In this document: positions 12,296 to 49,351 of the stretch, one piece after another
Layout of the letters: every line of letters starts with the position of its first letter
Position numbering within the stretch: position 1 is the first letter of the stretch
NCBI RefSeq assembly: GCF_009914755.1
Contig: NC_060939.1
Strand: one strand, 5' to 3'
DNA length: 64,000 nucleotides
Origin: the human T2T-CHM13v2.0 reference genome, Homo sapiens
The notes under the pieces: model-generated
Seen by the model: only the letters and a program-made list of their open reading frames with translations
Databases searched by the model: none
Told to the model about the DNA's origin: nothing
Made by a program: the position numbers and the translations under genes

Positions 12296-15116
12296 TGGCC
12301 TGGAGGGTTGGCTCCAAGAACCCCACAGTGAGGTCTCCTGCCAATCCGCATGGCATTCTGTCTTGGGGCTGTGAGGACACGGTGGGAGATCAGGGCCCAG
12401 TCTGTGCATCTCTCATTCCAGGGAGGCCGGGGCCCCGAATCCACTGTCCCTTAGACAGGAAGGGGATAGGGACACTCAGACCAGGGCTGCAGCCATTTGT
12501 CGCCTTTCATCAGGACTTTTGCCACACTCAGATGCCACTGGAACTCTACTTAGCGTTTTTTAAAAATCAGCTTACTTTTAAAATTTAAGTGTGTGTTTTA
12601 GCCTCGTCTTTAGCCATATTTGTGAAATCAGGGTCTGATGTACTAGTCAAATACCCGCACACATGTACACATACACATGTGCACATACACGCTCAGACAC
12701 ATACATATACACATATATGTGAAAATATACACATGAAATATATCCATGAAAGTAAACAAAGTTAAAATAGCAAATGCTCAGCTCCATGTACCATCTAATC
12801 CTGCTTTAGGTTTAGAGTGGCTCTAGTCTCCCCCCATTATGGGTGATTCCTCACTGGTGAAACAAAGCAGGTTCAGATGGCTCACAGAGCTGAGCATTTA
12901 CCAGCCATTCTAGCCTTCCTCCATTTTACAGACAAGGAAACCAAGGTCCAGAGAGGTGTAGGGCCTTCCCGAGGTCACACAGCGCTGGGATTAGTGGCCA
13001 GCCTGCCTGACTCCCAGCTGAGTGATCCTTTTACGGAAGCACACTCCCTGTCTGTGGTGTGCAGGGCCCCTTCCTCCAGAAGCATATGTGGACTCACAGA
13101 GCCCTTTAGGAGACTGTGCCCTAACATGCCTCCTTCCCCGCCACCTCGCAGTGCCCAGCACCCTCACTGGCCGGCACGTGCAGCACAGATCTGGGTGTGC
13201 AGCCACTCAGCACACTGATCCACACACGTGGGCAGAGTCACAACACAGAAGCTCGCCTGCACACAGAGGCATTTGCACCAGCTCCCTGCACACTTGTGCC
13301 TGGTGTGTTCAGAGGACCACCTGTGCTGCTCATGGAGACAGGGCTTGCTCGCTAATGTCCAGCTGTCATTTCTCTACCTCAGGTCAGAGAGTCTGACCCA
13401 CCTAAGAGCCTTCCATGGCTCCCTACGGCCTGCAGCATTGAGCCCCAAAAGTCAAACTCTTCGGACTTTGAAGGTTCTCCACCCTATGCCCCACCCTCCC
13501 CACAGAGCTCTTCCTCATTCCGTCTCTGTTCCCTGCTTTGGCCAGTGGCTGTCCTGGATGCGGCCCACACTACACCTCTGCCCACACTGCAGCTCTGTAC
13601 CCAGATACCCTCCAGTTCCTCGCCACATAATTCTATCTCAGTCATGCCCCGGACTGCGTTGAAGCCAGGCTGCCTTGAAGCTCTCCTAGACTGCTCTTTT
13701 CCCCAAGGGAGGGTCATGATTTGCCAAATGTTTCGCATGTGTTAGCAAGACTGGAGTCGGAGCAGGCATCAAACCTTACATCCCATATGTCACACCTCAC
13801 CACAGACCTGGATGCCAAATACCCTGAAGAGTCTGAACTCACATTGGCAGTTAGCAAAGTGCTCCTACAGCCACATCTGCAGTTAACACAGCATCCCTAT
13901 GGCCACTGTCTCTCTTGATCCCCACGGCCACTCTGGGAGAAAGGCAGAGAGTCATCATTTGATAGAAAGGATGCTGAGGCTCTGGGAGGGAAAGGGACTT
14001 GCCTAAAGCCCCAGGGTGAAGCAGCGTCTCTGGACTCCCAGTCCAGTGCTCTTGCCCAGTGCTATGCTGCTTGCCTCTACCCATCTCCGTGGGTCATCAG
14101 CGCATCATAGGGCAAGCCCCAATCCCTGCCTCATTTTGGTTTATGGGCGCTGGACCCACAGCCCTACCCTACAGTCATTTGGAGACAAAAACAGATGCTA
14201 TTGTTCTTCCTTAGAGAACGTGGCCAGTGGATCCGGCACACTGGGAATCAGAGTGAATGTCCTTGAAAGAGGCCATGGGTCAACAAGGCCAAGCCAGAGG
14301 ATGCAGAACGCTTTTCCTTAGAAATCTTTGGGAGTGAAGCAGGCTTCAGACTCTCCCATCCCTGCCCCTGCAGCCACCCCTACCACATTGGTTTGGACCC
14401 AGTAGGTTGGGGCGGGGGCGGGGGCGGGGGCGGGGTGGGGGTGGAGGAAAAATCAGATTGCCCATGCCCCCCAGGCTCCTTCCCCAGCTGCTTCTGTCCT
14501 AGCCCAGGCCTGGTGCCATTCTTCCACTCACACTCGTGTGCAAACCCACACACACATCACACACCTTGATGCTCACAGTCACAGCCTGGCCTCTGCTCCT
14601 GTGGGCCAGCGGCCAGACACCCCCTGGGATGGCTCAGAGGAGTCAGGACTTGGAAGTGAGGACATCAGGGTAGCTGAAGGAAATCCACACACCCAGAACA
14701 TCTCGGGGTTCAGACTCTCTGACCTGAGGTAGGCTCCCCAGGGGCTGGGAGAGGGGTTTGACGGAATGGAGGATGGAGGACAGCGGGAAGAAGAAACGAG
14801 GAGGAATGCAACGTGTGGGGCGGCCGCCAAGAGTGAAAATAGAGGGAAGCGCCATGCAAGTGCTGGAAAGAAGGGGGCAGGTGGGACGAGCCCCACAGCC
14901 CCCTCCACAAAAAGACCACTTCCGGGACTCAGTGCTCCTTTGGGGGCAGGCTCCGCCAGCTCTCCGCCACTCAGGGCTCCGGTCCCACGGTCGGAGTGCC
15001 CGGGACGGAGACGGCCAGTTCTGGCGGCCAGGTCCGACGCTCTAGAATCCAGCCCCATTTCCCTCCCGGCCACGCCCGTCCGGCGGCCTCTCCTGTCATA
15101 TTCAGCCCCTACTCAC

Positions 15117-17178
<2,062 letters not shown>

Positions 17179-17730
17179 CTGGGAGGCCCACACACCAACA
17201 CTGCCACCACTGCTGGCACCAGGGAGCACAGCCAAAGTAGACACACACAGAGAGGAAAAGGGGAGAGGTTGAGTGAACCTGGAACACTGCACCCCAACTC
17301 TAAGTCTCCTCTAGACATTGCCACAGTGAAATAGGGGAGAAAAGAGAAGGCAGTCACAGGAAACCACCATCATAGAAAGGGCATGCAAGAAATGCCATCT
17401 GTGGCAGAGACGGAGACACAAAACTGCCACTGGAGAAGGATGGGAGGACCAGAAGACTTAACTCTGATCTCACCCCAGAGTAGGTAGTGGGGAGGATTCC
17501 TGGTTATTTCTGAGCCAAACAAGGGCTCAGAAACATGGCATGACTTGGCATCACTGTGGATGGTGCCCCAGGGCCCCCCTAGTATCAGCAGCTTGACCCT
17601 CCTCTCCTTGCCCTGCCGCTCACCCCAACACACTCAAGGTACACACCAGCCCTCAGAAAGTAGGACTTCCAGCTGTTCACCTCCTCCTGTGTCTCATGAG
17701 CCAGCTCCAGCTGCCAATAATCCTTGTAGA

Positions 17731-18193
<463 letters not shown>

Positions 18194-18243
18194 TCAGCCT
18201 CAGTTTCCTGATTGGGAAAATGGGTTAATAATAATTCCTGCCT

Positions 18244-20500
18244 TGTTATGGTTTGGCTGTGTCCCTATCCAAATCTCAACTTGAATTGTGTCTCTCAGAA
18301 TTCCACTTATTGTGGGAGGGACCCAGGGAGAGGTAATTGAATCATGGGGGCTGGTCTTTCCTGTGCTATTCTCATGATAGTGAATAAGTCTTATGAGATC
18401 TGATGGGTTGCTTTTGCTTCTCTCATTTTCTCCTGCTGCTGCCAATGTAAGAAGTACCTTTCGCCTCCCACCATGATTCTGAGGCCTCCCCAGCCATGTG
18501 GAACTGTAAGTCCAATTAAACCTCTTTTTCTTCCCAGTCTTGGGTATGTTTTCATTGGAAGTGTGAAAATGGACTAATACAGTAAATTGGTACCAGTAGA
18601 GTGGGGCATTGCTGAAAAGATACCTGAAAATGTGGAAGTAGCTTTGGAACTAGGTAACAGGCAAAGGTTGGAACAATTTGGAGGGCTCAGAAGAAGGCAG
18701 AAAAACGTGGGAAAGTTTGGAACTTCCTAGAGACTTGTTGAATGGCTTTACCCCGAATGCTGATAGTGATACGGACAATAAGATCCAGGCTAAGGTGGTC
18801 TCAGATGGTGACAAGGAACTTGTTGGGAAGTGGAGCAAAGATGATTCTTGTTATGTTTTAGCAAAGAGACTCGTGGCATTTTGCCCCTGCCCTAGAGATT
18901 TGTGGAATTTTGAACTTGAGAGAGAAGATTTAGGGTAATCTGGCTGAAGAAATTTCTAAGTAGCAAAGCATTTAAGAGGTGACTTGGGTACTGTTGGCAT
19001 TCAGTTTTATAAGGGAAGCAGGGCATAAGTTTGGAAAATTTGCAGCCCGACTATGCGATAGAAAAGAAAAACCCATTTTCTGGGGAGAAATTCAAGCCAG
19101 CTGCAGAAATTTGCATAAGTAGCAAGGAGCCTAATGTTAATCCCCAAGACCATGGGGAAAATGTCTCCAGGCTATGTCTCCAGACCTTCACAGCAGACCC
19201 TTCCATCACAGGCCCAGAGGCCCAGGAGGAAAAAGTGGTTTTGTGGGCCGGGGCCAGGGACCCTGTGCTGTGTGCAGCCTAGGGTTTTGGTGCCGTATGT
19301 CCCAGCCACTTAGCCGTGGCTGAAAGGGGCCAACGTACAGCTCAGGCTGTGGCTTCAGAGGGTGGAAGCCCCAAGCCTTGGCAGCTTCCATGTGGTGTTG
19401 AGTCTGTGAGTGCATAGAAGTTAAGAATTGAGGTTTGGGAACCTCCACCTAGATTTCAGAAGATGTATGGAAATGCCTGGATGCCCAGGCAAAAGTTTGC
19501 TGCCAGGGCCTTCATGGAGAACCTCTGCTAGGGCAGTGCAGAAGGGAAATGTGGGGTCAGAGCCCCCCCCCCCCCAGAGTCCCTCCTGGGGCACTGCCTA
19601 GTGGAGCTGTGAGAAGAGGACCACTATCCTCCAGACCCCAGAATGATAGATCCACTGACAGCTTGCACCATGTGCCTGGAAAAGCCACAGCACTCAATGC
19701 CAGCCTTTGAAAACAGCTGGGAGGGAGGCTGTACCCTGCAAAGCCCCAGGGGTGGAGCTGCCCAAGACCATGGGAACCCAATTCTTGCATCAATGTGACC
19801 TGGATGTGAGACAAAGGAGATAATTTTGGTGCTTTAAAATTTGACTGTCCCACTGGATTTTGGACTTGCATGGGCCTTGTAATCCCTTTGTTTTGGTCAG
19901 TTTCTCCCATTTGGAACAACTGTATTTACCCAATATCTGTACCCTCATTGTATCTAGGAAGTAACTAGTTTGTTTTTGATTTTACAAGCTCATAGGCGAA
20001 AGAGACTTCCCTTGTCTCAGATGAGACTTTGGACTGTGGACTTTTTGGGTTAATGCTGAAATGAGTTAAGATTTTGGGGGACTGTTGGGAAGGCATGATT
20101 GGTTTTGAAATATGAGGACATGAGATTTGGAGGGGCCAGGGGTGGAATGATATGGTTTGGCTGTGTCCCCACCCAAATCTCAACTTGAATTGTATCTCCT
20201 AGAATTCCCACATGTTGTGGGAAGGACCCAGGAGGTGGTAACTGAATCATGGGAGCTGGTCTTTCCCGTGCTATTCTCATGATAGTGAACAAGTCTCATG
20301 AGATCTGATGAGTTTATTGAGGTTTCTGCTTTTGCTTCTATCTCATTTTCTCCTGCCACCACCATGTAAGAAGTGCCTTCCGCCTCCCGCCATGATTCTG
20401 AGGCCTCCCCAGCCATATGGAGCTATAAGTCCAATTAAACCTCTTTTTCTCCCCAGTCTCAGGTATGTTTTTATGAGCAGTGTGAAAACGGACTAATACA
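18244..20500 (+). mobile_element. Full-length THE1A MaLR provirus (LTR 18244-18581, internal 18582-20147, LTR 20148-20500) inside a MIR
   Basis: Two direct LTRs TG(T/A)TATGGTTTGGCTG...GGACTAATACA; perfect 5-bp TSD TGCCT; MIR halves on both flanks. Confidence 0.93.
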
Positions 20501-34208: not shown

Positions 34209-34501
34209 CGGTCAGCCCTCTGTATCCTCGGGTTCTGGATCCTTGGATTTGACCAACTGTGCATCAAAAATATTTGGAAAAAGTAAAATAAAAAAACAAA
34301 TTTAAAAATACTTCATACAGCTATTTACAAAGCATTTACGTTGTATTAAGTATTATAGTAATCTAGAGGTGATTTAAAGTCTACGGAAGGATGTGCATAG
34401 GTTATATGCAAATACTATGCCATATTATATCAGAGCATCTGTGAATTTTGGTATCTCTGGGGTCCTGGAACCAATATCCTGAGGTTTCTAAGGGACAACT
34501 G
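34209..34501. mobile_element. MER2 (Tigger-family) element
   Basis: TA flanks; inverted ends CGGTCAGCCCTC / AAGGGACAACTG; internal GGATGTGCATAGGTTATATGCAAATACTA. Confidence 0.75.
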
Positions 34502-35119
34502 TATTCAATTTCTTCTCTGGTTATTAGTCTATTCTCTAATGTATTTTTGTTGTTGTTTTGTCTTTTTGTTTTTGCCTCTTCAAGTCAATGTCGGAAACTT
34601 AGTTGTTTTAGACAACCCATTAGCTCAGAGCTACCAGTAAGCAGACTACCACTGCAATCTAAGCAACGGATTTTTTCCCCCATCAGACTGGCAAAAAATA
34701 AGCATCTATTGATGTTGAAATTGTAGGGAGTTTTCCTGAGCATGTTAATTATGACAGCCCTTTTTGCTAGGCACCTACACAATTCATCAAAATGAAATAA
34801 AACACCCATGCACTTGAAGAAGTTATCTGGTTATTTCCTTATCTGGGTGCTGGTTATGTGAGGTCTACAGTTAATGAACACTTATTAAGCTTTATATTTC
34901 TAATAGGTACAATTTTCTGCATGTGTAGTAGATTTCAATAGTTTTTAAAATGTCTTTTGCCGCAGCCCGCAGCTGTGTATAATGCTATTCGCTTAACAGT
35001 GGAAAACATGACAATGACCTGAATCCCCCTGGCTCCCGGGATCCTACCCCCTTAAGTTAAACAAATGAAATAACTTCCACTGTCTTTCCTAATGCCTTAA
35101 TTCGGTCCTCAGTTAAACT

Positions 35120-35352
35120 GGCGGTGGGCGCTGCTTTTTTTCCAGGGAAGGATTCTGGAAGACATAGGAGGAGACGCCAGCATTTCGCCCTCCAGCACCC
35201 CCTGCGGGCTGCGGTCCGCTTCCGGCCTCACTCGAGCAGGCCCCGCCCTCCCAGAGGCCGTTTGTCCAAGTCACGTGATCGTCGAATCTGTTGACCTGGC
35301 GCCACCGGAAAAAGAAATTCCCGGGCCCTGGCTTCTTGGCCTGATGGTGAGG
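35120..35352 (+). promoter_or_regulatory. Duplicated housekeeping-type CpG promoter with an ATG-only first exon (COMMD4-like)
   Basis: ETS CTTCCGG at 35219, GC box at 35240, GTCACGTGA at 35270, CCGGAA at 35305, then GGCTTCTTGGCCTGATG|GTGAGG at 35344-35352. Resembles my recollection of the COMMD4 5' UTR; no exon 2 found downstream. Confidence 0.6.
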
Positions 35353-35584
35353 CACCAGAGGTGAAGCGAGGCATGGGCTGCTGGAGCGGGAATGAGGGGG
35401 CGACAGTGGCTCCGGAAACGGGGGGAGGGTGTCTTCACTGGCCTCTCCGCAAACACAGTGTGTGCGGGTGTGAGGGCTGCAGGTCTGGTAGAGAAGAGTC
35501 CACCGCCATCCCGCTCCTGAGACGGGGGCAGGAGTGGGGGGCAGGAGTGGGGGGCGGGTAAGACAGAGCAGGCCGGCCGGCTTG

Positions 35585-35845: not shown

Positions 35846-37525
35846 AGTGGAAGCATCAGTATGCATGATTGAAGTCATGCTTTCCATCTATTTTTTTCCA
35901 CCTTCCCTTTTTTCTGTCTAAAACATTGTATCTTAAGCTTTTGCCTATGTTATCAAGTACTCATAAGCATTATTTGAATGGTTGTATCATAATCCATTAT
36001 CTGGACTCATTGTCATTTATCCATCTGCAGTTGCTGGAGATACTGCTCTTTCTGCCACACTCAGTCACCCTTCTGACCTTGCACTGTGTCCAGTTACCTA
36101 CTAATACCCATACTGGTCATTTAGGACTTAAGAATAGTTATCATAGTTTTTAACATTCCAAAAAGAATGTGTCTTCCTAAAAATAGAATGGCTTGGTGGT
36201 TATACTTTTAAAGCAAAATAGACAAAGCCATGTTGAAATTAATGTTTTATTTTCTTCTTGTATCTATTTTCACTTCTCTTGTCATTTTGATGGATAAAGT
36301 TTCATTTGGAAGGATTTTTATTTCAAAACAGAAATAGCATATGACATGAGAAGGGGAACTCTGAAAGGTTCAACTTCCTAGTTTACTAAGTTTGTCACAA
36401 AAGCTACTGATAGTCAATCATGATTGGCCTGTATTGAAAGTGAGTTAACATTATGTACAACTTAAGCACTATACTTTCTATCCGATACAGAAAAATAGGT
36501 GGTGTGTTTGGAAAAGTGTTGGGCTAGGAGTCAGGAAGCTTGATTGTTAGTCCCAACCCTGCTTCTTGAGCTGAGCACCCCTAGGCAATAATTCAGCAGC
36601 TATTTCTTAAATACCTAATGAATTTCAGGCTTTGTAGTTGGGCTGGGAATATAGACATAGATACTGCATTCATGATTCTCCAAGCCTCCCTTCCTCACCC
36701 CGGCTCACAGTGAGCTTTCTTATGCATTGTGTAAATTTGTCTCCTAACAGGCCCCAACTCTGTCTCCAACCTCCTTCCCAGGGCAGTTGTGAGGATCAGA
36801 TGAGGGAGAATATGTGTGAAAGCAAATTGTAAATTATTTTAAAATGCAATAAAAATATGATCCATGGAAAATTATTTAAAGATCCTTATTAAAATTATTA
36901 AAGATCCTTAGAATTTTAAATAAACAGTACATTAGGCCGGGCATTGTGGCTTAGGAGAGCGCTGGGTCAAATCAGTCCCCTCCAGCTACGCATTGCCTGG
37001 AGCTGCTCTCCAAGGACCCCTCAGCCACAGAAGGCGCTGGTCCTCCTACAGTGCTGCCCCACCCCCACCACCACAGCCTCCTGGGGGTGCAGTCAGGGGT
37101 GCCCTCCTTCAGGCTCTGCCCCTGCACCCACTCCTACACAACTACTCTCCCGGCCGGCAGCCCCAGAGACCAGATTGGTTTGGGCCTCTGCCTCCGCAGG
37201 CCCGAACCACCATCTCTTCTGCTCCCCAGAAAGCCAGCTCCCAGCACACAGGCAGCGTTCCCTCTTCATTCCTCAACACAGAGGGCCCCTCACAACCCTC
37301 TCAGCAGATGGTAGAGCTCCCCACGCATCCTCTTAAAGAGGCTTCACCGTTGATGGCCACAAGCCCCACCATGACCTCCTCCCAGGGAGTGAATTTTCTT
37401 ACATGTCTCCCACCAGAGCAGGGACAAAATAAAACATAAAAGCAGCAGCTGTTAAATTATCAGTAACATTTCCTACTAGGATCAACTCACGGAGTGGGCA
37501 GTGTATTCCATTAGGTGGATCAGTG

Positions 37526-37861
37526 CAGGGGTTAGCAAGCGTTTTCTGTAAAGGGCCCGATGGGAACTCTTTAAGGCTCTGCAGGCCACTGGGTCTCTGT
37601 CACCACCTACTCAAACCCTCCCCTGTAGCAAGAAAGCAGCCCTAGCAACATGTCAACAGATAAGCGTGGCCACATTCCCAGAAACCTTTCTTTATGGACA
37701 TGGAAGTTTGCATCTCACGTAATTCTCATGTGTCACAAGATACGACTCTACTTTCCATGTTTTCAACCATTTAAACATGTAAAAGCCATTCTTAGCGCGT
37801 GGGCCACACAAAAGCAGGCAGCAAGAAATTTGGCCTTTACACCAACAGCAGCTGACCCCTG
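37526..37861. mobile_element. MER58B hAT element
   Basis: CAGGGGTTAGCAAGCGTTTTCTGTAAAGGGCC...GCTGACCCCTG terminal inverted repeats. Confidence 0.75.
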
Positions 37862-38945
37862 GATGGAGCATTAGAGCTTGGGTGTGTGTCCCACTCCAGG
37901 GCTTCCAGGAGAGGGGATGCAGGCCGATGCCACCTCCACCCCTGTCGCTCTAGGGGAGAGGGCAGAGCTGGTGCTGTATGAAGTTTGGCTGCAGATCCTG
38001 GGCCAGCCCTACACCAAGGCCTTGGAGGACAAAACCAGCCTTGAGTTCTGGGCACTTCAGGGGCAACCGACAAGATGGGTGAAGTGGCGGGATGAAGTGG
38101 GGGGGCGGGGAAGAAGCCTCGGGAAGATGGGGGATGACTGGACAAGACTTTGGTAGAGCTGTGACCCTCTTCATCCTCTCCTGACCCCCCAGCTGACCCT
38201 CGTCCTCAGATCTCTGCAGAACTTTGACCAGTGGTGGTGGAGGAATTCCGGTGGGTCCAGGGTGGCCCTGGGTGACCCAGGGCTCAGACCTGGGTTCTGG
38301 GGTTGAAGGCAGGAGGCTGGAAGAGATGACCTCCCCTAGTCCCCCAAGGCTGCCCAGCCCCCTGAAGTGGGATGATCCTCCCACCAGGCTGGACCCACTG
38401 ACCGTCAGAGTGGGTGCCACCTTCTTCAGGGCGGCATCAGCCCAGGCTCTCGTGTGGGTCTGCACACCCTGGGGGAGGCAGAGGGCCTCTTGGTAGACAC
38501 GGTCATCTCAGACCTCGGTCAGTACCTCCTTCCCTCTGCAGGCCCCCTCCCTCTGTCCATCTGCCTCCTCCCTTGGGCTTGCTGCCTCTACATGCCCTGA
38601 TCTGAAACCTGCCTCCCCTCCTCATGGAGCCCTCCAAGATGCTCCTAGCCCCAGCTCTCTGGTCCCGCAGCAACTTCTGGTGCCAGATTCTGCCTTCTCA
38701 GAAGTCTGGGAGGCAGGGCCCCGCCTGGCCATAGCCTTCTTGGTCTGCTCTAGGCACTGCTAGCCTTGAAGCCTCCAGCCTGCTGGATGCCTCCATCCCC
38801 GGCTATGCTGTGGCTCTCCTCATTCTAGGCCTCCTGCTCGTCACATTCACCCTTGTCCTGGTGAGTGTCTGGCTGGGCCCAGGCTCCTTCCTGAGGGGCA
38901 GGCTGAGCCTTTGATGCCTTGAGCCTTGAGCCAAGCTGAGGAGTG

Positions 38946-39046
38946 AGCAGGCCCCTTTACACCCCTGATTCCCCCACCCAAGCCCAGCATCTCCTCATCC
39001 TCCAGCTGGGGCTGCAGGGTTTGGGGCCAGGGGGCTGGGCCTGATC
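38946..39046 (-). ncRNA. MIR4313: Annotated microRNA hairpin; mature AGCCCCCUGGCCCCAAACCC at 39036-39017
   Basis: The reverse complement matches the miR-4313 precursor as I recall it. Confidence 0.65.
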
Positions 39047-42000
39047 CCAGTGTCCCCACCCTTCTTGTCAAGGTGCTAAAGTGGAGGGCCTCCCATGGGG
39101 TGTTCAGCCTGGGTGTGTAGAAGCACACAGTGTGGTACAGAGGACCCTCTCCAGACAGGTAAGTGGAGGGCGGTTCTCCCTGACCCCACCCCAATTGTTT
39201 GTTCTGGGTGGGGTCCACCGAGCCCCCTGCCAAGGCCTTCTGCAAACACTCCCCAGGGGCTGTTGTGGGCAGCACCTGGGTGGTGCAGTTGGTGTGCCAG
39301 AAAAGCTCCCCAGTACTGTGGGCAGTGGCCCAGGCAGTCAAGCAGACTCCCTCAAGCAGGCCCCACCTACCCCTCGCCTGTTCCCAGCTGCCTCCCACCA
39401 ACCCTAGAAATGATGCTGGGAGCTGACAGAAACTGAACTTAGGAGCACAGGAGGCCAGGAGACCTGGGACAGAGAACAGGAGGTATGGGGAGGGAATCTT
39501 CCTTCCCCCACTTCCCACTGCATGAGGGCCAGACAGTGGCACCTCCAGGTCCTGGAAGGACACGTGTGGACCCAACTCAGTTGGCCCTTTGTCTTATGGC
39601 CTTTCTTCTCCCTCCCCCGGGGCCAGGTGGATGTGGGAGGAGACGAACCACCATCCTGGGTGCACTCAGACTCATTCCCCACTCCTGGCCTTCACTCCCT
39701 TTCCTCTACACACAGGTGACCCCTCATGCTGCTGCTCCCTCTGCTGAAACCCAAACTGCAAACCTCTCCTCTCCCTGCCTTCACCTTGCCCCACGGCTTC
39801 CACAGACAGTGCCTCAACCCCGAGGAATGAATCCGAAGTTCCAACACCACTGACTTTCCCAGGAACTCAGAGCCAGAGAGGGCCAAGGACCAGCTCGAGG
39901 ACACACAGCCAGGGCTTCTTCCCTCCGAAACCCCCAAGGACTGGACTTGCAGGGCTGGGACAGAGGTGGGGTGGGGGAAAGCAATGCCTTGTCAACCCAC
40001 GTGGGGAGCCCCACTCCCATCCCCAAGGTGCATAAAGTTGAGGAACACCCCTGCTCCCACGTCCATGCTCATTCAGGGCCCTGCTCCAAGTGCTTGGCAC
40101 TCACACCAGCCTCCTGCCCTCCACAGGTATTGGTCTCGTTTACAGATGGGGAAATGGTGGCCAAGAGCCTCCCCCAGCACATATAGCTAGACCACACAGA
40201 GGACTTAGGCACAGCTGGGGGGTCCGCAGTCTCTGCTGCCTCACCTGCCACCAAAGTGTGGTCCTGCTGCCAGGTGGCAGGAAGGGGACAGAAGCCCGCC
40301 CCAAAGAGGGCTGGGGCAGGGGCACCCTTACGCCTGCCTGGTCTGGCCCAGTAGGGCTGGAGAGACTGTCAGTCCTAAGAGAAACACTGGCCTTTTGGGA
40401 GTATGGAAAAGTCAGGAAGCAATCCAAAGTTGGTATTTAAAATATTGATTTCTAGATATTTAGATGGTCATCTGGTGTGAGGAGCTGGGAGGGCCCCAGG
40501 GTAGAGTCCACAAGAGGAGGAAGATTGAAAAGGGGTCAGAGTGGAAATGGGAGCTGCTGAGGGCAAGGCCCAACCCCCTCCTTGACTCCCCAAAGCCAGC
40601 CACAGAGCCAGTCAGCCTCAGGCCAGAGGGTGTGAGCAACGGGGACCCTGGCTGCTCTACAGTGGATCAGAGCCACTGGGTGTGGGGAGTCTTCCAGGGC
40701 AGGTGTGGGGCCGCCGGGGCAAGGCAAGCTCCCAGGGCAGAGACTGAGGCCACCCCCTGCAGCCCCACTGCAGGGGGGAACACCGGGATAGGCAAGGGTC
40801 TTAACCCAGAAAGCCCCAGCAGCTCCCGTGCCCATCAGGACACCATTGAGGCTTGGCGGTGGTGGAACCCAGGAATGGTCTTTGAACCCATGACCTGGAA
40901 GGGGGAGCCAAGGATAGTCCTGGCCTGAAAGCTCTCTACCTGCAGGCAGTGTGGAGGCCCAGCGAGGGGACCCCAGGAGCCCAGACCATGAGCTTACGTG
41001 GCCAAAGACAGCAGCCAGCACCAAGACATCAAAGAGGGCGGGTAGAAAGATCATCACATAGGGGTTGACTGCGGCCGGCACCAGGTTCCTCTGTACTTCT
41101 GGAACACACAGGCCTCTCCTTCCTATCCCTGAAGCGCCCATGCCCCCACCCCGGCACCCCGAAAACCAGCCTAACATATGCATTTGTCCTGGGTCAGCCC
41201 CACTGTCCAAGCAACTGCAATTTCTGACTAGAGAGCCAGGGCAGGGCAGGGTGTAGGAGGGGTCCCTGGAAGATGCCCCCAGAATGCCCTGATGCCTAAA
41301 ACGTTCCCCGTTGGGCCTTCTCAGGGAGGGAGGGTTAAGACAGCCTTGTTCTCTCCAGCTACCTCCATCACCACTGGAGCCCTTACAGGCGTCAGGGGAG
41401 AGAATTGGCTCAATGGAGCCAGGAACAGCATGGACACAGCCCTGGGGCTGAGGCTAAGTGGGCTCTGGGAGACCGTCACTCTCTCTTCAAGCTTTGGTCT
41501 CCTGGCCCTCTACAAGCCAGGCTGTTTCAGGCTTTGCGTTAGGCCTTGCTCAGAGACAGAGTTGAAACACAGCTGGTGGACACAGTGGGCTTTAGGGAGG
41601 GGGCACGTACCTGGGGGTGGGGGCTGGGTAACAGGGAACGGAGGCCCTGGGGCTAGCGTGGCCTGTCTGGTGGTGGTGCAATGGGACCTGCACCACCTGA
41701 GGACAGAGGGTCCACCTGGAAGACTGGACCAGCCAGATGGCCACCAAGCTGGATGGCCACCGTCAGAGCCTGCAGGACAGCAGAGGGGGCTGGGAAGGGA
41801 CAGAGGACAGCTGAGGGGCAGGGAACATGGGTTCCTCCATACAGACACATGAGTCTTCCCTAAGTGGGTCTTCCCCGTGAGGGCGAGGGGGCATTCAAGA
41901 CACACCTCCAGCCCACCTCAAACCATCTCAGGAGGCCACCACCAACTCACACAGGCCAGTTGCATTGTCACAGTGACCCCAGAACAGCACAGCCCTGTCC

Positions 42001-44161
42001 TTCAGATGAATAAACAGAGGGAGAGACGCATGTCACAGCCAGGAGCTGGGACTCAGACCCAGGTCCAGCTGCAGTGCTTTCTCGATGGCTCTGCCTGCAC
42101 CTCCTCCAGGACTTAGTTCCTGCTAACAAGTGAGCACTTGAGTACAAGTGAAATAGGTGCTATTATCCCTGTCCAGCTGTCTGGCTGCTGGGGAAAGGGA
42201 AGCAAGGCACAGGTGACTTGCCCAAGGCCAAAGTGACAGGGCTGGTTCAACCCCATCTGTCTCAGCCAGCACATCCCCATGGCAGAGGCTTTACTGTGAT
42301 CCAAACCTGGAAGGTGGAACTCCTTCCAATGTCCCACCCAGGGCACAGAGTATGCAGCCCCATGTTTGGGGAAGTGACCGGGTGGGGAGGTGACAGTGTG
42401 GGAAACAATCCAGCTAGGCCAAGGCCTCATGGAGCCCAGGGTTCCCTAGGACCAGGAGAGCTCTGGAGCCCACCCCGACACCCATTGGAAACCTGGAATC
42501 CGCACCTGCAGGAGATCAGGAGAGGGGTTTGGCCTCCGATGCACCTGCAGCAAGGTGAGACAGGCACAGGTGGGCGCCCTGCTTCCAACCAGCGTCAGGA
42601 GAGCAGGAAGCAGATCTCCTGCCTGACCTTCCTCTCCTGCCTCCCCCAAGCAGAGGAGAAGGGGCAGCCGCCCATCAGGCCATTGCCCAGATTGAAGCCA
42701 CTGAAGCTAGGTCCCAACAGGTGAGTGTGACCCCTGACTATCCCAGGCCCGGCCCAATGCAGTCCTGTCTCTGGTGAGGACCTGGTAGACAGGAGATGTG
42801 ACATCCCCAAGTGGCTCTATAAACCTCTTATTGAGGATAATCAAGGAAATGGGCAAGACCATCACGCTCAGCAAAGAACCTGGCAGGCACGAGGGGGACC
42901 AGGGGCAGGCAAAAGTCAGTTTGGGCCCAGGCCTGGCCCCTGGAAGGATGGTGGATGAGGGGCCAGCCACGGTGAAGGGGAATGGATGGCCACGGGCTGG
43001 GTGGTCAGGACTGTCAGCTCCTGCAGCCCCTGCGGAATGTCTGCCCAGGCCTGGCTCTGCGCTCAGCCTTCTGCCTGGAGCCACAGGTGCCTGGACACCA
43101 GCCTCAAGTAGGGATGGTGGTAGGAAAGGCACTTGTGGCCACACGTGGGCACCTAAGCATGGGACAGAGGGGTATCATGCCCCAAAGAGACTATAGAGGC
43201 CAAGAACTTAAGCAGGTCTGACACCATCAATAAATCCCCTTGTCCTGGGTCACATCAATTAAGTCAGCGCCTACCCTGACCCTGAAGCTGCAGCTCAGTC
43301 TGGTTGAGACACACAGAGATGTTAGTGCTGGGCAGGGGGCCTGGCCCAGCCTGCGATGTCCAGCAAAGCTGTGGGCTGGACAAGATCTCTGAAGATTAGT
43401 CCAGGACAAGGACAGCTGTGTCTGGGCAGGGAGTGGGGGCAATGCTCAGGGGGCAGGAGGCCTGAGGACCTTTAACTAGGTAGGATGCCAGGTCAGGACG
43501 TGCAGAAGGGAAGGTGGCATGACAGCATCCTGCCCGAGGCCAGGCTATAAACCTCGGGGCTGCCCTGTCTAGCCTAAACCATGCTGCCACCCAGATGCCA
43601 TCCTTCAAATGTGAGGCTGGGCTGGGAGAGCCCCCAGACCCCTTATCCCTCCCGCCCCAAGCTGGTTCCCATCCCTCACCAGAAGGAAAGTGAACTCTTC
43701 TATGGGGCACATCCTGCCAGGTTCTCTATCACCTGGGGGAAGGGGTTGGGGGGAGGGGGAGCTGCAGCTGGGTGAGAAAGAGCCCAGGTCCACTCTGTCC
43801 CTACCTGACAGGTGACCTCGGGCAAGCTGCTTTCTTTGCCTGGGGCCAAGGAGAGTCACAGGGGAAGGGCCAGGTTAAGAGGGCTCCACCCTGGAGCCCA
43901 GAGCTACCCACAGAGAAAACCGCCCATCCTCTTGATTCTGCTCCCAGCTCATGCTGCTGGGATAACATCCCCCCCATCAGAGAGGCCGTGGGAGGCAGAG
44001 GCTGACCTTTGCTCCTTCAGGCACCTCAGCAGGTTTGGGTCCACCTTCATCATGATCAGGGAGTGGGTCCCTGGGATCACAAAGGTGAGGGGCAGCTTCT
44101 TGGGCTCCAGGTGCTCCAAGGTACACCCTGCAGGGCACCAGAGCTAGAAGGGCATTGGGGA

Positions 44162-44381
44162 GGCTGGGTGCAGTGGCTCATGCCTGTAATCTCAGCACTT
44201 TGAAAGGCTGATGTGGGTGGATCATGAGGTCAGGAGATTGAGACCATCCTGGCTAACATGGTGAAACCCCATCTCTACTAAAACTACAAAAAATAGCTGG
44301 GCGTGGTGGCACTTGCCTGTAGTCCCAGCTACTCGGGAGGCTGAGGCAGGAGAATCACTTGAACCTGGGAGGCAGAGGTTG
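44162..44381 (+). mobile_element. 3'-truncated AluSc/Y
   Basis: Alu sequence stops abruptly at GGCAGAGGTTG. Confidence 0.85.
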
Positions 44382-45016
44382 AACAGGGCTAGGACCTGAG
44401 CTCTGCCTGGCCATGGTGACTCTGAGCCAAGTAACCCTACATTAGTCTCAGTCTGTCACTGTGTCTCATAGGGGATGTCAGCATTACCTTTGGAGTCAAA
44501 GTAGGTAAGCCAGGGTAACCAGAGTTCCCTGCAGGGACCAAGACCAAAGGATGCAGGGGTCAGGCCTGTCCCAGAAGGTCAGGCTGAACAAGAGGCTGTG
44601 TCAAGCTGGGGCAGCTGAGGTCCTGCCCTTCAGGTTATAGGCATCTGGGTCCTGGTCTAGACCCTCATATGCCATCCAGAGACCCAACCCTAGGGACAAT
44701 TCCTCCCAAGCTGGTAGAAAGAGTAGATCATTGTACTCACCGCACCAAAAGCTCTGAAATGATAGGGCCTGTGGGTGGGGAGAAAGACTCTTCAGGAAAA
44801 TGTTCTCAGGGGCAGGGAAGGTTTGAGCTGGATCTTAGGGCAGCCAGAGAGGTAGGTGACAGGCCCCCTCACAAAGCCTGTCAGATAATGCAGGAGGGAC
44901 ACAGGTGTAGTGGTGGGAATGTTCTGGAAGACAGCAGGAAGCCTCCCACTCACTGATGGGGCTGAGTGAGGTCAGGTCCACACACCAGGAGAAGCTGGAA
45001 TCCGCACACCGGTGCA

Positions 45017-45295
45017 CTTTGTTTTTTGTTTTAGAGACAGGGTCTTACTCTGTTGCCCAGGCTGGAGTGTAGTGGCACAATCATAGCTCATCACAGCCTG
45101 GACCTCCTGGGTTCATGAAATCTTCCCACCTCAGCCTCCTGAGGAGCTGGGACTACAAGTGCATGCCACCGTGCCTAATTTTATTTTTTGTGGAGACAGT
45201 ATCTGGCTATGTTGCCCAGGCTGGTCTCAAGTGATCTTTCCACCTCAGCCTCTAAAAACACTGAGATTACAGGGACAAGCCAGTGCTCCTGGTCA
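45017..45295 (-). mobile_element. AluJ inserted into a relic SEA exon
   Basis: Reverse AluJ; TSD GTGCA(C/T)TTT at 45012-45020 and 45301-45309. Confidence 0.85.
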
Positions 45296-45616
45296 TGCTA
45301 GTGCATTTTGGCTGCCATGGTGCACAGGAGGTATGAGCTGGGGGGTAGAATCTGCTCCTGGACCTCTACCCAGGCCTGCACCCAGACTGACTCCTGGGCT
45401 GCAGGGAGCAGGTGTGGAGAGAATGCAGTGAGCAGAGCGGGCTAGCCAGTGATGGAGACCCAGGCTGGGACTAGGAGAGATAGGGCTGCAACCCTCGGCC
45501 TAGTGGCCCTGCCCAACCCACTGGGGCCAAGATGACTTCCTAGGAGCCAGGCATGGAGGCCAGCATGCACCTGAACTGAGGACAGAAGATTCTGATGAGA
45601 GGGAGGGGGAGGCCTC

Positions 45617-46651
<1,035 letters not shown>

Positions 46652-49351
46652 GCCTCCACGCTTGGTGCCCACTGGACCTGACACTCAGGGAAGGGCTGGT
46701 CTTGACTCTGCCATTAACAGCCAGACTATGACAGAGTTGTTCCCCTGCTCTGCCTCAGTTTGTCCTCTCTCAGCTAAGCAGAGCAGGGATAATTGCTTCT
46801 CATGTGGGCCCCAGGACAAAACAAAGCCCTGAGTCCCACAGGAAGGTAGATGGGTTATGTCCAAGGGAAGACAGACCTGAGGCAGTATTTTATGTTCCCG
46901 AGGTGGCAGAGGTACATGGAGAAGATGCTTCCTTTGTGGGCCAGGGAGAAGGGAAGATAAGCAGAGAGGTGCCAGACACCTGCCTCACCCCTACCTCCCC
47001 CACCCCATGCCAGGCCCATTCCCACTTAGCCCCCAACTCAGGCAGCACCATTCTACTTATGGTCAGCATGACTTCCCAGCCAAGCTGATGAAAGCTGACA
47101 GCTTGGATTCATCAGGGACAGCATGTAGTATAGGTGATGTGCAGGACGGAAGTGGAGAGGGGACATGGGAGCCACGGTGTCAGGTCTGGGGCTGCCAACA
47201 TGGTACCTGCCTTGGCTGTAAAAAAAAAAAAAAGTCACTGTTTTGGGGTTTTCTGGATGAAACCTCTGATTCCATTTTTTAAAAAAGGGTCGAGACAGTA
47301 TGTATTATTGATTCAAAGTCATAACCAGATGCTTAGAGTAAATCATTGCATCTATTGTTTCAAAAACCAACCTCAGGATTATTAAAAGTTAGTTTTATTG
47401 GATTTTTCTTTAGCTGTGCTTATTCACTCAGGTGAGACTCACTCAGGTCTGTCATTTCCAAGCCCATGTTTTACTACTTTGTAACCCTATTTGGAAGGAA
47501 AACTGCAGCTAAGATTATGACCCATCCTGCCATGAAAAGTTTCACACATATACACCACATATACCCCCCACCACAGTATGATGACACAGCAACCCAACCT
47601 CGGGCAAATGGTACCACTGCCAGCAAATGCATGTTTTCTTTATTTCTTCAAAATGTTTTTTCTTTATTTCTTCTAATAGCAGCAAATGCATTTAACATTT
47701 TATTGAGATTCTCAACAGCTGTCATTTGGTTTGTATAGCAAATTGTTTACAAAGTAACCTTTTTCCATTTTTGATATTTTAATGAAAATTATGTTCTTCA
47801 GTTTTAAAGCCCCATCCCTCTCCCAAAGAAAGGTTAATAACTAACTACCAAGTAATGATTATTTAGGAAAAGAAGAAAAGCAAAACCAGCTTGTAAACAC
47901 TTCTGGAATGTGGGTAAGGGGCCAAAGTCAAGCCCTTCCGGGCCCAGTGCAGGTGCTAGGCTTGCCTCGGGACACCATCAGCACTTCCCCATCCACAACA
48001 TCCTCAACAGCTGGGAGCCATGTGTGGACCCAGGGGGCTTCCTGTTCCACAAGCTCCCCTCTCTTTTTCCTCTCCACGCTTGCTGTTGGGCCTCCCTTCC
48101 AAATCTGCCTAACAAAGGCAGCAGGATCTTTAATACTGTTCAGCTTTGTCAATGGAGACAGGATACTCTAGAAAGTTGAGAGATCCCTGGTCCAGTCTGG
48201 GGGAGGAAAAAATATACAGTGTAGCATAGATGGTTTTACTTGTCCATTCAGACACATGCTCATACTTATTAGATGGATGTATCAGATGCTTCAAAAGTCC
48301 TGATGTGTAGTAGCACAAAAGCTGCTTGTAAAAAAAGAAGTTGCAAAATGATAAAAATTTCTGCAGCAGTTCAGGCTCCTGATGACAAAGCTGGTTCTGA
48401 TAAGTAGTTATTTTGACATGCACAGCAGGTTTCACTGTAAGTCCTGTGTTCCAGCGGTTTCATTTAGACCATAGGAAGTTGAAAGCAAAGTTTAAATGTT
48501 CTCTGCTGACAAAATGTGGTATATATCCATCAATGGACTTCTACTCAGTAATGAAAGGAACAAACGACCAAAACCTGTTATATGTCATGGACCAACCTCA
48601 AAAACATTAGCTAAGTAAAAAAGCCAGACACTTATTGTATAATTCCATTGATTTGAAATGTCCAAAAAAGGCAAGTTGATAGAGACGGAAATGGTCTGAT
48701 TTACCTCAAGAGGTAGGGATTCAAGCTCTCTAGAGTACATGTGATACATACATGAGAAAAAATAAGGAAAAGAAAATAAATTTATATGTAAATAAATGAA
48801 AATAATACTTCTCCCTGATTATAAAGAAAATCACTTTCTTTTTGTAATAATTTGGAAGACAAAATATGAAGAAAAGTCTTAAATTTTGCCACTCAAAACA
48901 TTCTGGTTTGTTGCTTTTTGTATTTTTTATGCATATGAACATTTTAAAAAGTAGAATTGTAATATATAGTCTTTTGTCACTATGTTTTGGGCATATTTCT
49001 ATGGCAGTAAATATATCCTTGGCATCATCCTCTTTAAAAGCCCGATGTATATTAAGTTAATCATTGCCACCCCAGAAGTAAATTTTCTTATACAAATATA
49101 GTTTAATGGATGCAAGCAAGCATTTTTGGGCTGAATTCATAGAAGTAGAATTTCTGGAGGAAAATAACATAAAGCAGTTTTAAGATTTTTAATAGAAATT
49201 TTCAAATTATCCTGCAGAAAAATTGGTTCAGTTTATACTCCCAACAGGGGCAGAGCTCCAGTGTCCCCTTCCATTTGTCCTCTTTGCTGGTATTTAAGCA
49301 GAAAATCTCATTGTTTTCATTACATTTATTTGGTTTCTAGTGCTTTTGAAC

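What the first reader, a model, noticed from the sequence alone, without database searches (positions are those of the whole stretch)
36955..39158. MUC1-architecture mucin relic (PTS region, SEA, TM, tail) resembling taste-cell TRCG1
Seen: the order and phases of the SEA, TM and tail exons match MUC1. A 125-nt SEA exon ends in phase 0; a short exon ends EEFR in phase 2 (58 nt, one base short); the third SEA exon ends VISDL in phase 1; an open 107-nt TM exon IPGYAVALLILGLLL (MUC1: VPGWGIALLVLVCVL) is followed by basic VLKWR. The GSVVV autocleavage position reads DPLTV, so this SEA is probably non-cleaving. The visible lesions in the SEA-TM-tail part are two frameshifts and a TAG at 39118. Inference: the peptide resembles my memory of the mouse Trcg1 C-terminal region, a gene near Commd4, so this would be a lost TRCG1-family chemosensory or epithelial gene. 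A further tail exon may start at 39627.
Basis: partly seen in the sequence, partly recalled or inferred. Interest (0 to 1): 0.8.

Follow-up and report, generated by a model that had tools for sequence, protein, structure and literature searches.

The report
Duplicated tail of dead TRCG1 gene
This stretch is a decayed, partial copy of the last exons of the taste-cell gene TRCG1, carried here by a segmental duplication and now spliced into a non-coding RNA, so it is an ordinary pseudogene fragment and not a lost gene in its own right.

Summary
The exon observations hold. Window 37954-39158 carries, in order and on the + strand, three exons of a SEA-like domain, a 107-nt transmembrane exon and a tail exon. 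All have AG/GT borders, and the junction phases (0, 2, 1, 0) are those I measured in the MUC1 gene.

The first exon is 78-96% identical to 11 proteins, 7 of them primate models named "taste receptor cell protein 1(-like)". Full-length TRCG1 (777-922 aa) occurs in many non-anthropoid mammals.

The lesions are real:
- a 1-bp deletion in exon 2;
- a 16-bp deletion in exon 3;
- TAG at 39118.

The "PTS region" (36955-37439) is not an exon. It is the copy of a parental intron.

The complete TRCG1 exon set lies about 535 kb away, at T2T chr15:73.096-73.104 Mb (- strand). That locus is itself broken in its large mucin-like exon. The window holds only a 3' duplicate, which starts at 36951 and differs from the parent by K2P 0.053.

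The TM and tail exons now serve as exons 2 and 3 of lncRNA LOC101929408. Its first exon is a copy of sequence that lies 3.6 kb upstream of the only COMM-domain exon found on chr15.

This is a pseudogene fragment of a known family, of low to moderate interest.

The parts
36951..40251 (+). First block of the segment duplicated from the parental TRCG1 locus. Homology continues in further blocks to at least 47218.
   Evidence: blastn of the window against the 30-kb parental region gives 36951-40251 = parental 14958-18295 at 93.7%, followed by 40277-44161, 44371-45150 and 45147-47218. The junction was read.
36955..37439 (+). It is the copy of the parental intron between the last exon of SEA module 2 and the first exon of SEA module 3, and is not an exon.
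   Evidence: Searches place it between parental exons 14390-14548 and 15972-16096. One search gives only low-complexity matches. One search gives its P/S/T fraction as 0.34-0.37.
37954..38078 (+). SEA module 3, exon 1 (125 nt, open, ends in phase 0).
   Evidence: 78-96% identity to 11 proteins, 7 of them named primate TRCG1(-like) models. 71% identity to Otolemur TRCG1, E 2.8e-14. Pfam SEA E 0.2 for this exon alone.
38193..38250 (+). SEA module 3, exon 2 (58 nt). A 1-bp deletion at 38229/38230 shifts the frame. The exon ends in phase 2.
   Evidence: In the alignment of six genomic copies, 4 of 4 other chr15 copies have 59 nt.
38388..38517 (+). SEA module 3, exon 3 (130 nt). A 16-bp deletion lies at about 38455/38456. 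The exon carries DPLTV at the position of the G|SVVV cleavage motif and ends in phase 1.
   Evidence: 146 nt in 4 of the 5 other copies, 136 nt in L005 through a different deletion at its 3' end; none shares the window's gap. tblastn gives two pieces in different frames.
38754..38860 (+). Transmembrane exon (107 nt, open). It is identical in extent to exon 2 of lncRNA LOC101929408.
   Evidence: 60-65% identity to the TM segment of deer (P0046) and marsupial (P0048) TRCG1, and 47.5% over a 40-aa alignment to elephant shrew (P0029). lncRNA exon borders come from the hub's annotation table.
39073..39158 (+). First cytoplasmic-tail exon (86 nt) with TAG at 39118-39120. It is identical in extent to lncRNA exon 3.
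   Evidence: The exon is identical in the parental copy. The marsupial tail reads on past this position.
38943..39220 (.). A 278-bp tract with no difference from the parental copy, flanked by 4-12% divergence. The likely cause is gene conversion.
   Evidence: Mismatch list and sliding divergence. The older copies differ by 11-12% in the same tract.
38946..39046 (-). Annotated MIR4313 hairpin, antisense, in the intron between the TM and tail exons and inside the identical tract.
   Evidence: Position from the hub's annotation table.
39716..40055 (+). Last lncRNA exon. It lies within the duplicated block and overlaps sequence weakly similar to the C-terminal ends of pig and cattle TRCG1 gene models.
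   Evidence: (E 0.02 and 4.7e-4), and the annotation table.
34500..35583 (+). A different duplicon that supplies lncRNA exon 1 (35116-35346/35360). It is a 90% copy of sequence lying 3.6 kb upstream of, and on the same strand as, the only COMM-domain exon found on chr15.
   Evidence: The donor after ATG at 35346/35347 is shared with that paralogue.

Best explanation
Window 36951 onward is a partial copy of the 3' end of the TRCG1 gene (taste receptor cell gene 1), made by segmental duplication.

TRCG1 encodes a single-pass membrane protein. It has a long P/S/T-rich region, three SEA-like modules, a transmembrane helix and a short tail.

The copy begins inside the intron that precedes the third SEA module. 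It therefore carries only that module's three exons, the TM exon, the tail exon(s) and downstream sequence. It has no promoter, signal peptide, mucin-like exon or first two SEA modules.

Since the duplication it has picked up two frameshifting deletions. It encodes no TRCG1 protein. Its TM and tail exons keep working splice sites and are used as internal exons of lncRNA LOC101929408.

The first exon and presumed promoter of that lncRNA come from another duplicon, one that resembles the 5' end of the neighbouring COMM-domain gene.

Shown: the homology, the exon structure, the lesions, the duplication breakpoint and the SEA fold of the orthologous module.

Inferred: the direction and rough age of the duplication, the absence of function, and the COMMD4 identity of the promoter donor.
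For: - Identity. Exon 1 matches 11 proteins at 78-96% identity. Seven are primate models named TRCG1 or TRCG1-like, 2 are unnamed hypothetical proteins of primates, and 4 come from sources that give no name. One of these proteins in turn retrieves 37 full-length proteins of 635-922 aa, which are either named TRCG1 or SEA domain-containing, or left unnamed.
- Copies in the genome. The region has 6 copies. Only the one at chr15:73.096-73.104 Mb matches the whole 362-aa primate protein, exon by exon. The window matches residues 246-342 only.
- Breakpoint. Homology to that locus starts abruptly at 36951, inside a parental intron, and runs for at least 10 kb downstream. The sequence upstream of 36951 belongs to other duplicons.
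- Lesions. Neither the 1-bp nor the 16-bp deletion is seen in any of the other copies that cover those exons.
- Relaxed constraint. Coding differences from the parent are 26 nonsynonymous against 14 synonymous codons.
- SEA fold. All 11 of 11 orthologous third modules hit Pfam SEA (best E 9.9e-6). An AlphaFold2 model of the Otolemur module has pLDDT 87 and beta-alpha-beta-beta-alpha-beta topology. Its 7 best PDB matches are all SEA domains, from TMPRSS6, a mouse transmembrane protease and MUC16, at E 6e-7 to 1e-3.
- Exon phases equal those of MUC1.
- No coding potential. No ATG-led ORF of 25 aa or more in any of the 3 lncRNA models I spliced reads the TM exon in the TRCG1 frame.
Against: - Exon-level Pfam evidence in the window itself is weak. 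Only 1 of 8 translations matched SEA, at E 0.2 and 12 bits against a cut-off of 26.4.
- A six-frame SEA search of the genome listed 65 exon matches and none on chr15.
- Even the intact orthologous module scores just under the Pfam cut-off (25.5 against 26.4 bits).
- The sequence profile of module 3 reaches a solved SEA chain only at E 0.26.
- Patches of gene conversion make the direction and date of the duplication less certain than a simple divergence suggests. One tract is identical to the parent; exon 2 is identical to copy L005.
- The TM exon is open in all 5 chr15 copies, and the window's transcript is annotated. Some use of the RNA therefore cannot be excluded.
Confidence: 0.9

Rival explanations
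1. The window is the original TRCG1 locus that lost its 5' half by deletion or rearrangement, and the complete-looking locus at 73.10 Mb is the derived copy.
For: Both loci lie in the same duplication-rich part of chr15. Gene conversion blurs which copy is older.
Against: Only the 73.10 Mb locus has all exons in order. The window's homology ends at a sharp junction inside an intron, next to unrelated duplicons. The 73.10 Mb locus lies about 105 kb from the only COMM-domain exon found on chr15.
Confidence: 0.03
2. The fragment still makes a small membrane protein, or another peptide, from the lncRNA.
For: The TM exon is open, spliced and transcribed. One annotated first-exon variant ends in ATG directly before the donor.
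Against: That ATG enters the TM exon in a different frame and gives a 25-aa ORF that ends inside the exon. No ORF of 25 aa or more in the three models I built reads the TRCG1 frame. The only other ORFs are 27-34 aa.
Confidence: 0.03
3. The exons are a relic of a MUC1-type mucin unrelated to TRCG1, or a chance pattern of open frames and splice motifs.
For: The exon phases match MUC1. The upstream region is P/S/T-rich.
Against: Identity to TRCG1 proteins is 60-96% across four exons. With E-values up to 10 allowed, exon 1 hit no mucin among solved chains; the only hit was an unrelated phycobilisome protein at E 0.22. Phase identity is what shared SEA ancestry predicts.
Confidence: 0.01
4. The fragment has been taken over as a functional non-coding unit, either as the chimeric lncRNA or as the host of MIR4313. 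The 278-bp tract identical to the parent would then be kept by selection. This reading is compatible with the origin given above.
For: The annotated lncRNA reuses the ancestral splice sites, and MIR4313 is annotated (annotation table). The identical tract begins 3 bp outside the annotated hairpin.
Against: The same tract differs by 11-12% in the three older copies. That pattern fits gene conversion between two copies better than constraint. I have no expression or conservation data outside this genome.
Confidence: 0.12

Closest known systems
TRCG1 / taste receptor cell protein 1 (mouse Trcg1; LopezJimenez et al. 2005, Genomics 85:472, of which I saw only the title in reference lists)
   Same: Direct homology of the third SEA module, the TM exon and the tail exon, in the same exon order and with the same splice positions as the parental human locus.
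   Different: Only the 3' third of the gene is present, with two frameshifts and a stop. It lies at a non-ancestral position and is transcribed from a foreign first exon as a lncRNA.
MUC1 (membrane mucin with SEA, TM and tail)
   Same: The overall plan of the parent protein: a P/S/T-rich region (0.39-0.46 in four TRCG1 sequences), then SEA, TM and a short tail. The intron phases through SEA, TM and tail are identical, including the split codon before the cleavage site.
   Different: No significant sequence similarity between module 3 and MUC1. Even the family profile reaches MUC1 only at E 0.096, and through module 1. TRCG1 has three SEA-like modules. Module 3 lacks the G|SVVV motif in 11 of 11 orthologues. 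Tandem repeats were not examined.
Non-cleaving SEA domains of MUC16 and of type II transmembrane serine proteases
   Same: These are the best structural matches of the modelled module 3 (TMq 0.60-0.73, E 6e-7 to 1e-3). The same beta-alpha-beta-beta-alpha-beta fold is predicted.
   Different: Sequence identity is 10-18%. The comparison concerns the intact orthologue, not the broken window copy.
Duplicated pseudogene fragments in chr15 q-arm segmental duplications (the window also holds DNM1P35, GOLGA6EP and PPIAP47)
   Same: A partial genomic copy with introns, mosaic junctions with other duplicons, patches of gene conversion, and transcription as a non-coding RNA.
   Different: This fragment is not annotated as a pseudogene in the table supplied with the finding.

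Membership tests
TRCG1 (taste receptor cell protein 1) | Significant sequence similarity to named TRCG1 proteins | tested here: met
   11 hits at E 1e-15 to 2e-7 and 78-96% identity. Otolemur, E 2.8e-14; the TM exon is 60-65% identical to deer and marsupial TRCG1.
TRCG1 (taste receptor cell protein 1) | Collinear exons with conserved splice sites (SEA3 exons 1-3, TM, tail) | tested here: met
   The borders are shared with the parental locus and the other chr15 copies.
TRCG1 (taste receptor cell protein 1) | Complete gene: signal peptide, P/S/T-rich exon, and SEA modules 1 and 2 | tested here: not met
   The window matches only residues 246-342 of the 362-aa probe and 708-824 of Otolemur TRCG1. 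Homology starts at 36951, inside an intron.
TRCG1 (taste receptor cell protein 1) | Uninterrupted reading frame | tested here: not met
   A 1-bp deletion, a 16-bp deletion and TAG at 39118.
TRCG1 (taste receptor cell protein 1) | Ancestral chromosomal position (orthology) | tested here: not met
   The full exon set lies at chr15:73.096-73.104 Mb, about 535 kb from the window and about 105 kb from the chr15 COMM-domain exon. Mouse synteny is recalled and was not tested.
TRCG1 (taste receptor cell protein 1) | Expression in taste receptor cells | not testable with these tools
   No expression data are available here. Passages in PMC5479815 and bioRxiv 10.1101/2025.08.26.672487 list Trcg1 among taste markers in mouse organoids and in shark.
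SEA domain (Pfam PF01390) | Match to the family profile above the curated cut-off | tested here: inconclusive
   Window exon 1 scores E 0.2 and 12.2 bits against a cut-off of 26.4. Of the intact orthologous modules, 11 of 11 match; the one whose score was shown (Otolemur) reaches 25.5 bits at E 1.5e-5, and the best E-value among the 11 is 9.9e-6. Whole orthologues pass, at 37.9-63.9 bits.
SEA domain (Pfam PF01390) | Alpha/beta sandwich fold (beta-alpha-beta-beta-alpha-beta) | tested here: met
   Tested on the Otolemur orthologue of the module, not on the broken copy. pLDDT 87; the top 7 Foldseek matches are SEA domains.
SEA domain (Pfam PF01390) | G|SVVV autoproteolysis motif (present in a subset of SEA domains) | tested here: not met
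   The window reads DPLTV. All 11 of 11 orthologues read P-(D/E/S)-P-(L/T)-T-A at this position. Module 1 of the family keeps FRPGS.
MUC1-type membrane mucin | P/S/T-rich (mucin) domain encoded upstream of the SEA domain at this locus | tested here: not met
   The claimed region is a parental intron. The true P/S/T-rich exon exists only at the parental locus.
MUC1-type membrane mucin | Same intron phases through SEA, TM and tail | tested here: met
   phases 0, 2, 1, 0 in both genes.

The most novel reading that the evidence does not exclude
Two linked readings remain open.

(a) Human TRCG1 may be a unitary pseudogene whose loss goes back at least to the common ancestor of humans and macaques. 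No anthropoid protein model found here is full length. The human parental locus has a stop or frameshift pair in its mucin-like exon and no ATG where the rodent initiator aligns. This would be a loss of a taste-cell surface protein that I did not find described in the searchable literature.

(b) The window's fragment may have been turned into a primate-specific chimeric transcript. A duplicated 5' exon of a COMM-domain gene, ending in its ATG, is spliced onto the TRCG1 TM and tail exons. That transcript also harbours MIR4313 inside a tract kept identical to the parent. It could be a functional non-coding unit rather than transcriptional noise.
Probability: 0.15. Interest if true: 0.5.

Novelty: new member of a known kind. 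Interest (0 to 1): 0.3.

Why it matters
- It gives an origin for an uncharacterised lncRNA (LOC101929408) and for the sequence around MIR4313. Both sit on exons and an intron inherited from TRCG1.
The human genome keeps a nearly complete, broken TRCG1 about 535 kb proximal, plus at least five partial copies. This matters for annotating pseudogenes in the chr15 duplication blocks. It also bears on comparative work on taste-cell genes, because rodents, artiodactyls, a strepsirrhine and a marsupial all have full-length models.
- Apart from that, the finding is an ordinary product of segmental duplication.

Tried and rejected
- Pfam on 8 window translations: only exon 1 matched, weakly.
- phmmer of exon 1 against solved structures: one irrelevant hit at E 0.22.
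- Profile of 26 TRCG1 proteins against solved structures: only weak hits (E 0.096-0.53), and those through module 1.
- Profile of module 3 against solved structures: a SEA chain at E 0.26, next to an apolipoprotein at E 0.23.
- Six-frame SEA search of the genome: 65 matches, none on chr15. It served only to locate MUC1.
- PTS reading of 36955-37439: rejected.
- Coding reading of the lncRNA: rejected.
- The primary Trcg1 paper is not held.
- A paper search with too long a term failed. A shorter term found 0 papers.
- "LOC101929408" found 2 papers and "miR-4313" found 58. I saw the listings only, and neither set looked relevant.
- The tail beyond the TAG and the suggested exon at 39627 could not be settled. 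Few orthologue models carry the TM isoform, and the matches are weak.
- Dating by divergence is unreliable because of the conversion patches.


Full report
**What is in the sequence**

On the + strand between 37954 and 39158 there are five candidate exons with canonical AG and GT borders:
- 37954-38078: 125 nt, open, ends in phase 0.
- 38193-38250: 58 nt, ends in phase 2.
- 38388-38517: 130 nt, ends in phase 1.
- 38754-38860: 107 nt, open, hydrophobic core IPGYAVALLILGLLL, ends in phase 0.
- 39073-39158: begins VLKWR, with TAG at 39118-39120.

**Is it more than chance, and what is it?**

The 41-aa translation of the first exon was searched against 5.8 billion proteins. It returned 11 hits at E 1e-15 to 2e-7 and 78-96% identity.
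- Seven are primate gene models named "taste receptor cell protein 1" or "-like": bonobo, gibbon, baboon, macaque, squirrel monkey and titi.
- Two are colobine "hypothetical proteins" carrying a precomputed Pfam SEA domain.

One of the colobine proteins (P0011, 362 aa) was then used as a query for longer proteins. It retrieved 37 proteins of 635-922 aa from rodents, artiodactyls, an elephant shrew, a bushbaby and a marsupial. Most are named TRCG1 or SEA domain-containing. No anthropoid primate is among them.

**Architecture of the family**

Full-length orthologues have these parts in order:
- a hydrophobic N-terminus;
- about 450 residues with a P+S+T fraction of 0.39-0.46;
- three SEA-like modules;
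- in the marsupial, deer, elephant-shrew and some rodent models, a TM segment and a short basic tail.

Module 1 keeps FRPGS at the autoproteolysis position. Module 3, the one present in the window, reads P-(D/E/S)-P-(L/T)-T-A there in 11 of 11 orthologues. The window's DPLTV is thus a family trait and not a sign of decay.

**Is module 3 a SEA domain?**

- Pfam SEA matches all 11 of 11 isolated modules. The best E-value is 9.9e-6; the Otolemur module, the only one whose score was shown, reaches 25.5 bits at E 1.5e-5, just under the 26.4 cut-off.
- In whole Otolemur TRCG1 the best-scoring SEA stretch is this module.
- An AlphaFold2 model of the Otolemur module, built from an 11-row alignment, has mean pLDDT 87 and pTM 0.78. 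Its order of elements is beta-alpha-beta-beta-alpha-beta.
- The seven best Foldseek matches in the PDB are all SEA domains: TMPRSS6, a mouse transmembrane protease and MUC16, at E 5.9e-7 to 1.0e-3 and TMq 0.60-0.73.

Sequence-only searches were weak:
- The window's exon 1 alone gives Pfam SEA at E 0.2.
- The module profile reaches a solved SEA chain only at E 0.26.
- A genome-wide six-frame SEA scan listed no chr15 exon among its 65 matches.

**The MUC1 comparison**

I located MUC1 through that scan and read its exons from the same genome.
- The repeat-bearing exon ends in phase 0.
- A 56-nt exon then ends AG|G, in phase 2, directly before PGSVVV.
- A 137-nt exon ends in phase 1.
- The 122-nt TM exon ends in phase 0.

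The undamaged TRCG1 copies have 59, 146 and 107 nt with the same phases, and the same split arginine codon before the cleavage position. It is what common descent of SEA modules predicts and does not make this a MUC1 relative. Even the family profile reaches MUC1 only at E 0.096, and through module 1.

**Where the gene really is**

The region 37900-39200 has six copies in this genome:
- the window;
- chr15:73,095,762-73,097,082 on the - strand, at 93%;
- three copies at chr15:70.46, 71.96 and 75.80 Mb, at 88-89% and lacking SEA exon 1;
- one on chr1 at 168.5 Mb, at 82% and holding the SEA exons only.

Mapping P0011 and Otolemur TRCG1 onto the genome shows that only the 73.10 Mb locus carries every exon in order. 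These are the large P/S/T-rich exon (73,102,414-73,104,063), the exons of modules 1 and 2, module 3, and the TM exon. The window matches residues 246-342 of P0011 and 708-824 of the Otolemur protein, and nothing further upstream.

blastn of the whole window against 30 kb around that locus shows homology starting sharply at window 36951. It runs in blocks to at least 47218 at 90-94%; everything else that matches is Alu. In the parent, the start point lies in the intron between the last exon of module 2 and the first exon of module 3.

The sequence just upstream in the window belongs to other duplicons. Copies of those lie on chr15, chr10 and chr5.

The window therefore holds a 3' partial duplicate.

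**The "PTS region"**

Positions 36955-37439 fall entirely inside the intron-derived part.
- The three overlapping open frames there are P/S/T-rich: 0.34-0.37, against 0.26 +/- 0.06 for the window's 143 long ORFs.
- TRCG1 proteins give only scattered low-identity matches there, in varying frames and at unrelated query positions (E 0.001-0.04).
- All orthologues run directly from module 2 into module 3.

This part of the finding is not supported.

**Lesions**

- Exon 2 lacks one A at 38229/38230. All 4 other chr15 copies have 59 nt. The chr1 copy has a different 1-bp loss.
- Exon 3 lacks 16 bp at about 38455/38456. Four of the 5 other copies have 146 nt, L005 has 136 nt through a different deletion at its 3' end, and none shares the window's gap.
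- The tail TAG is shared with the parent. The marsupial tail reads on past this position, so the TAG is probably premature. Few TM-isoform models were available to judge by.
- Coding differences from the parent are 26 nonsynonymous against 14 synonymous codons, as expected without constraint.

**State of the parental gene**

From module 3 to the tail TAG the parental copy is open. In the large exon, however, the TRCG1 frame runs into a stop.
- For about a dozen codons the ancestral reading, seen in colobine, bushbaby and artiodactyl proteins, continues in another frame and then returns. This indicates two nearby frameshifts.
- Where the rodent initiator methionine aligns, the human sequence has no ATG.
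- A search with the human open part found only an unnamed identical fragment and a 320-aa macaque "uncharacterized protein". That model starts at an internal methionine and skips part of the exon.

No anthropoid model is longer than 445 aa. Together these points suggest that TRCG1 was already broken in the common ancestor of humans and macaques. This is an inference from gene models, not from aligned genomes.

**Age and gene conversion**

The window and the parent differ by K2P 0.053 over 3230 aligned sites. From general knowledge of primate divergence, that is roughly the human-macaque level.

The figure is unreliable, because the copies have exchanged sequence:
- Positions 38943-39220 (278 bp) show no difference, between flanks at 4-12%. 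The three older copies differ by 11-12% in the same tract.
- Exon 2 is identical to the 75.80 Mb copy.

The identical tract contains the annotated MIR4313 hairpin and the tail exon. The shared TAG may therefore have spread by conversion.

**Present use**

According to the supplied annotation, lncRNA LOC101929408 uses 38754-38860 and 39073-39158 as exons 2 and 3. It thus uses exactly the TRCG1 TM and tail exons, with their ancestral splice sites.

Its first exon (35116-35346 or -35360) lies in a separate duplicon.
- The 90% paralogue of that duplicon sits at chr15:73,205,3xx-73,206,4xx.
- That is 3.6 kb upstream of, and on the same strand as, the only COMM-domain exon found on chr15.
- In both copies the shorter exon variant ends in ATG directly before the GT donor.

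I infer, from recalled map knowledge and not from a named record, that this is a copy of the COMMD4 promoter and first exon. The lncRNA would then be a chimera of two duplicons.

None of the three transcript models I spliced has an ATG-led ORF of 25 aa or more in the TRCG1 frame. The ATG at the end of the exon gives a 25-aa ORF in another frame.

**Literature**

A search for "Trcg1" found 10 papers. I read the matching passages of five of them.
- Two (PMC3652417, PMC2712080) only cite LopezJimenez et al. 2005 in their reference lists.
- One (PMC7997960) uses the symbol for T-cell receptor gamma transcripts.
- Two (PMC5479815, bioRxiv 10.1101/2025.08.26.672487) list Trcg1 among taste-cell markers in mouse organoids and in shark.

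The other five I saw only in the listing. "Taste receptor cell protein" found 0 papers. "LOC101929408" found 2, which I saw in the listing only. The primary 2005 paper is not held and may discuss a human orthologue. I therefore cannot say that the human pseudogene is undescribed, only that I found no description of it.

**Verdict**

The exon-level observation and the TRCG1 and SEA inference are right. The PTS part and the idea that this is the lost gene itself are not. The feature is a partial duplicated pseudogene of a known family that has been reused as lncRNA exons.

Noticed in passing
G000 chr15:73,095,8xx-73,104,1xx (- strand; loci L002, L007, L008, L011): A nearly complete human TRCG1 locus with all exons in order. 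It has a stop and an apparent pair of frameshifts in the large P/S/T-rich exon, no ATG where the rodent initiator aligns, and a TAG in the tail exon. It is probably a unitary pseudogene.
   Followed up: partly
window 38943-39220: A 278-bp tract with zero differences from the parental copy, amid 4-12% divergence. It covers the annotated MIR4313 hairpin (38946-39046, - strand) and the tail exon. A second, identical copy of the MIR4313 hairpin therefore exists at the parental locus.
   Followed up: partly
window 34500-35583 and L012:810-1875: The first exon of lncRNA LOC101929408 is a 90% copy of sequence lying 3.6 kb upstream of the only COMM-domain exon found on chr15. Both copies have ATG directly before the splice donor. 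The transcript is probably a promoter-capture chimera of two duplicons.
   Followed up: partly
L006 = G000 chr1:168,506,619-168,507,364 (+): An older genomic copy of the three SEA module 3 exons with their introns, without the TM exon. It differs from the chr15 copies by K2P about 0.16 and has TAG and TGA stops in its exon 1, plus TAG and TAA stops inside its protein matches.
   Followed up: no
L003 (chr15:71.96 Mb) and L004 (chr15:70.46 Mb): Two TRCG1 fragments in opposite orientation that are identical over 951 aligned sites. This points to a very recent duplication or to conversion. Both lack SEA exon 1 and the stretch corresponding to window 39110-39850.
   Followed up: no
window 38754-38860: The TM exon interval is the most diverged 100-bp bin in every pair of chr15 copies compared (13-16 differences per 100 sites), against about 5% overall between the window and the parent. 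The cause was not examined.
   Followed up: no
window 36936-36950: About 17 nt resembling the 5' end of an Alu sit exactly at the junction between the upstream duplicon and the TRCG1-derived block.
   Followed up: no
Proteins P0001-P0010: Nearly all anthropoid TRCG1-like gene models read through the donor of SEA module 3 exon 1 into the intron and stop there, instead of splicing to exon 2. They also start inside module 1 or later.
   Followed up: no
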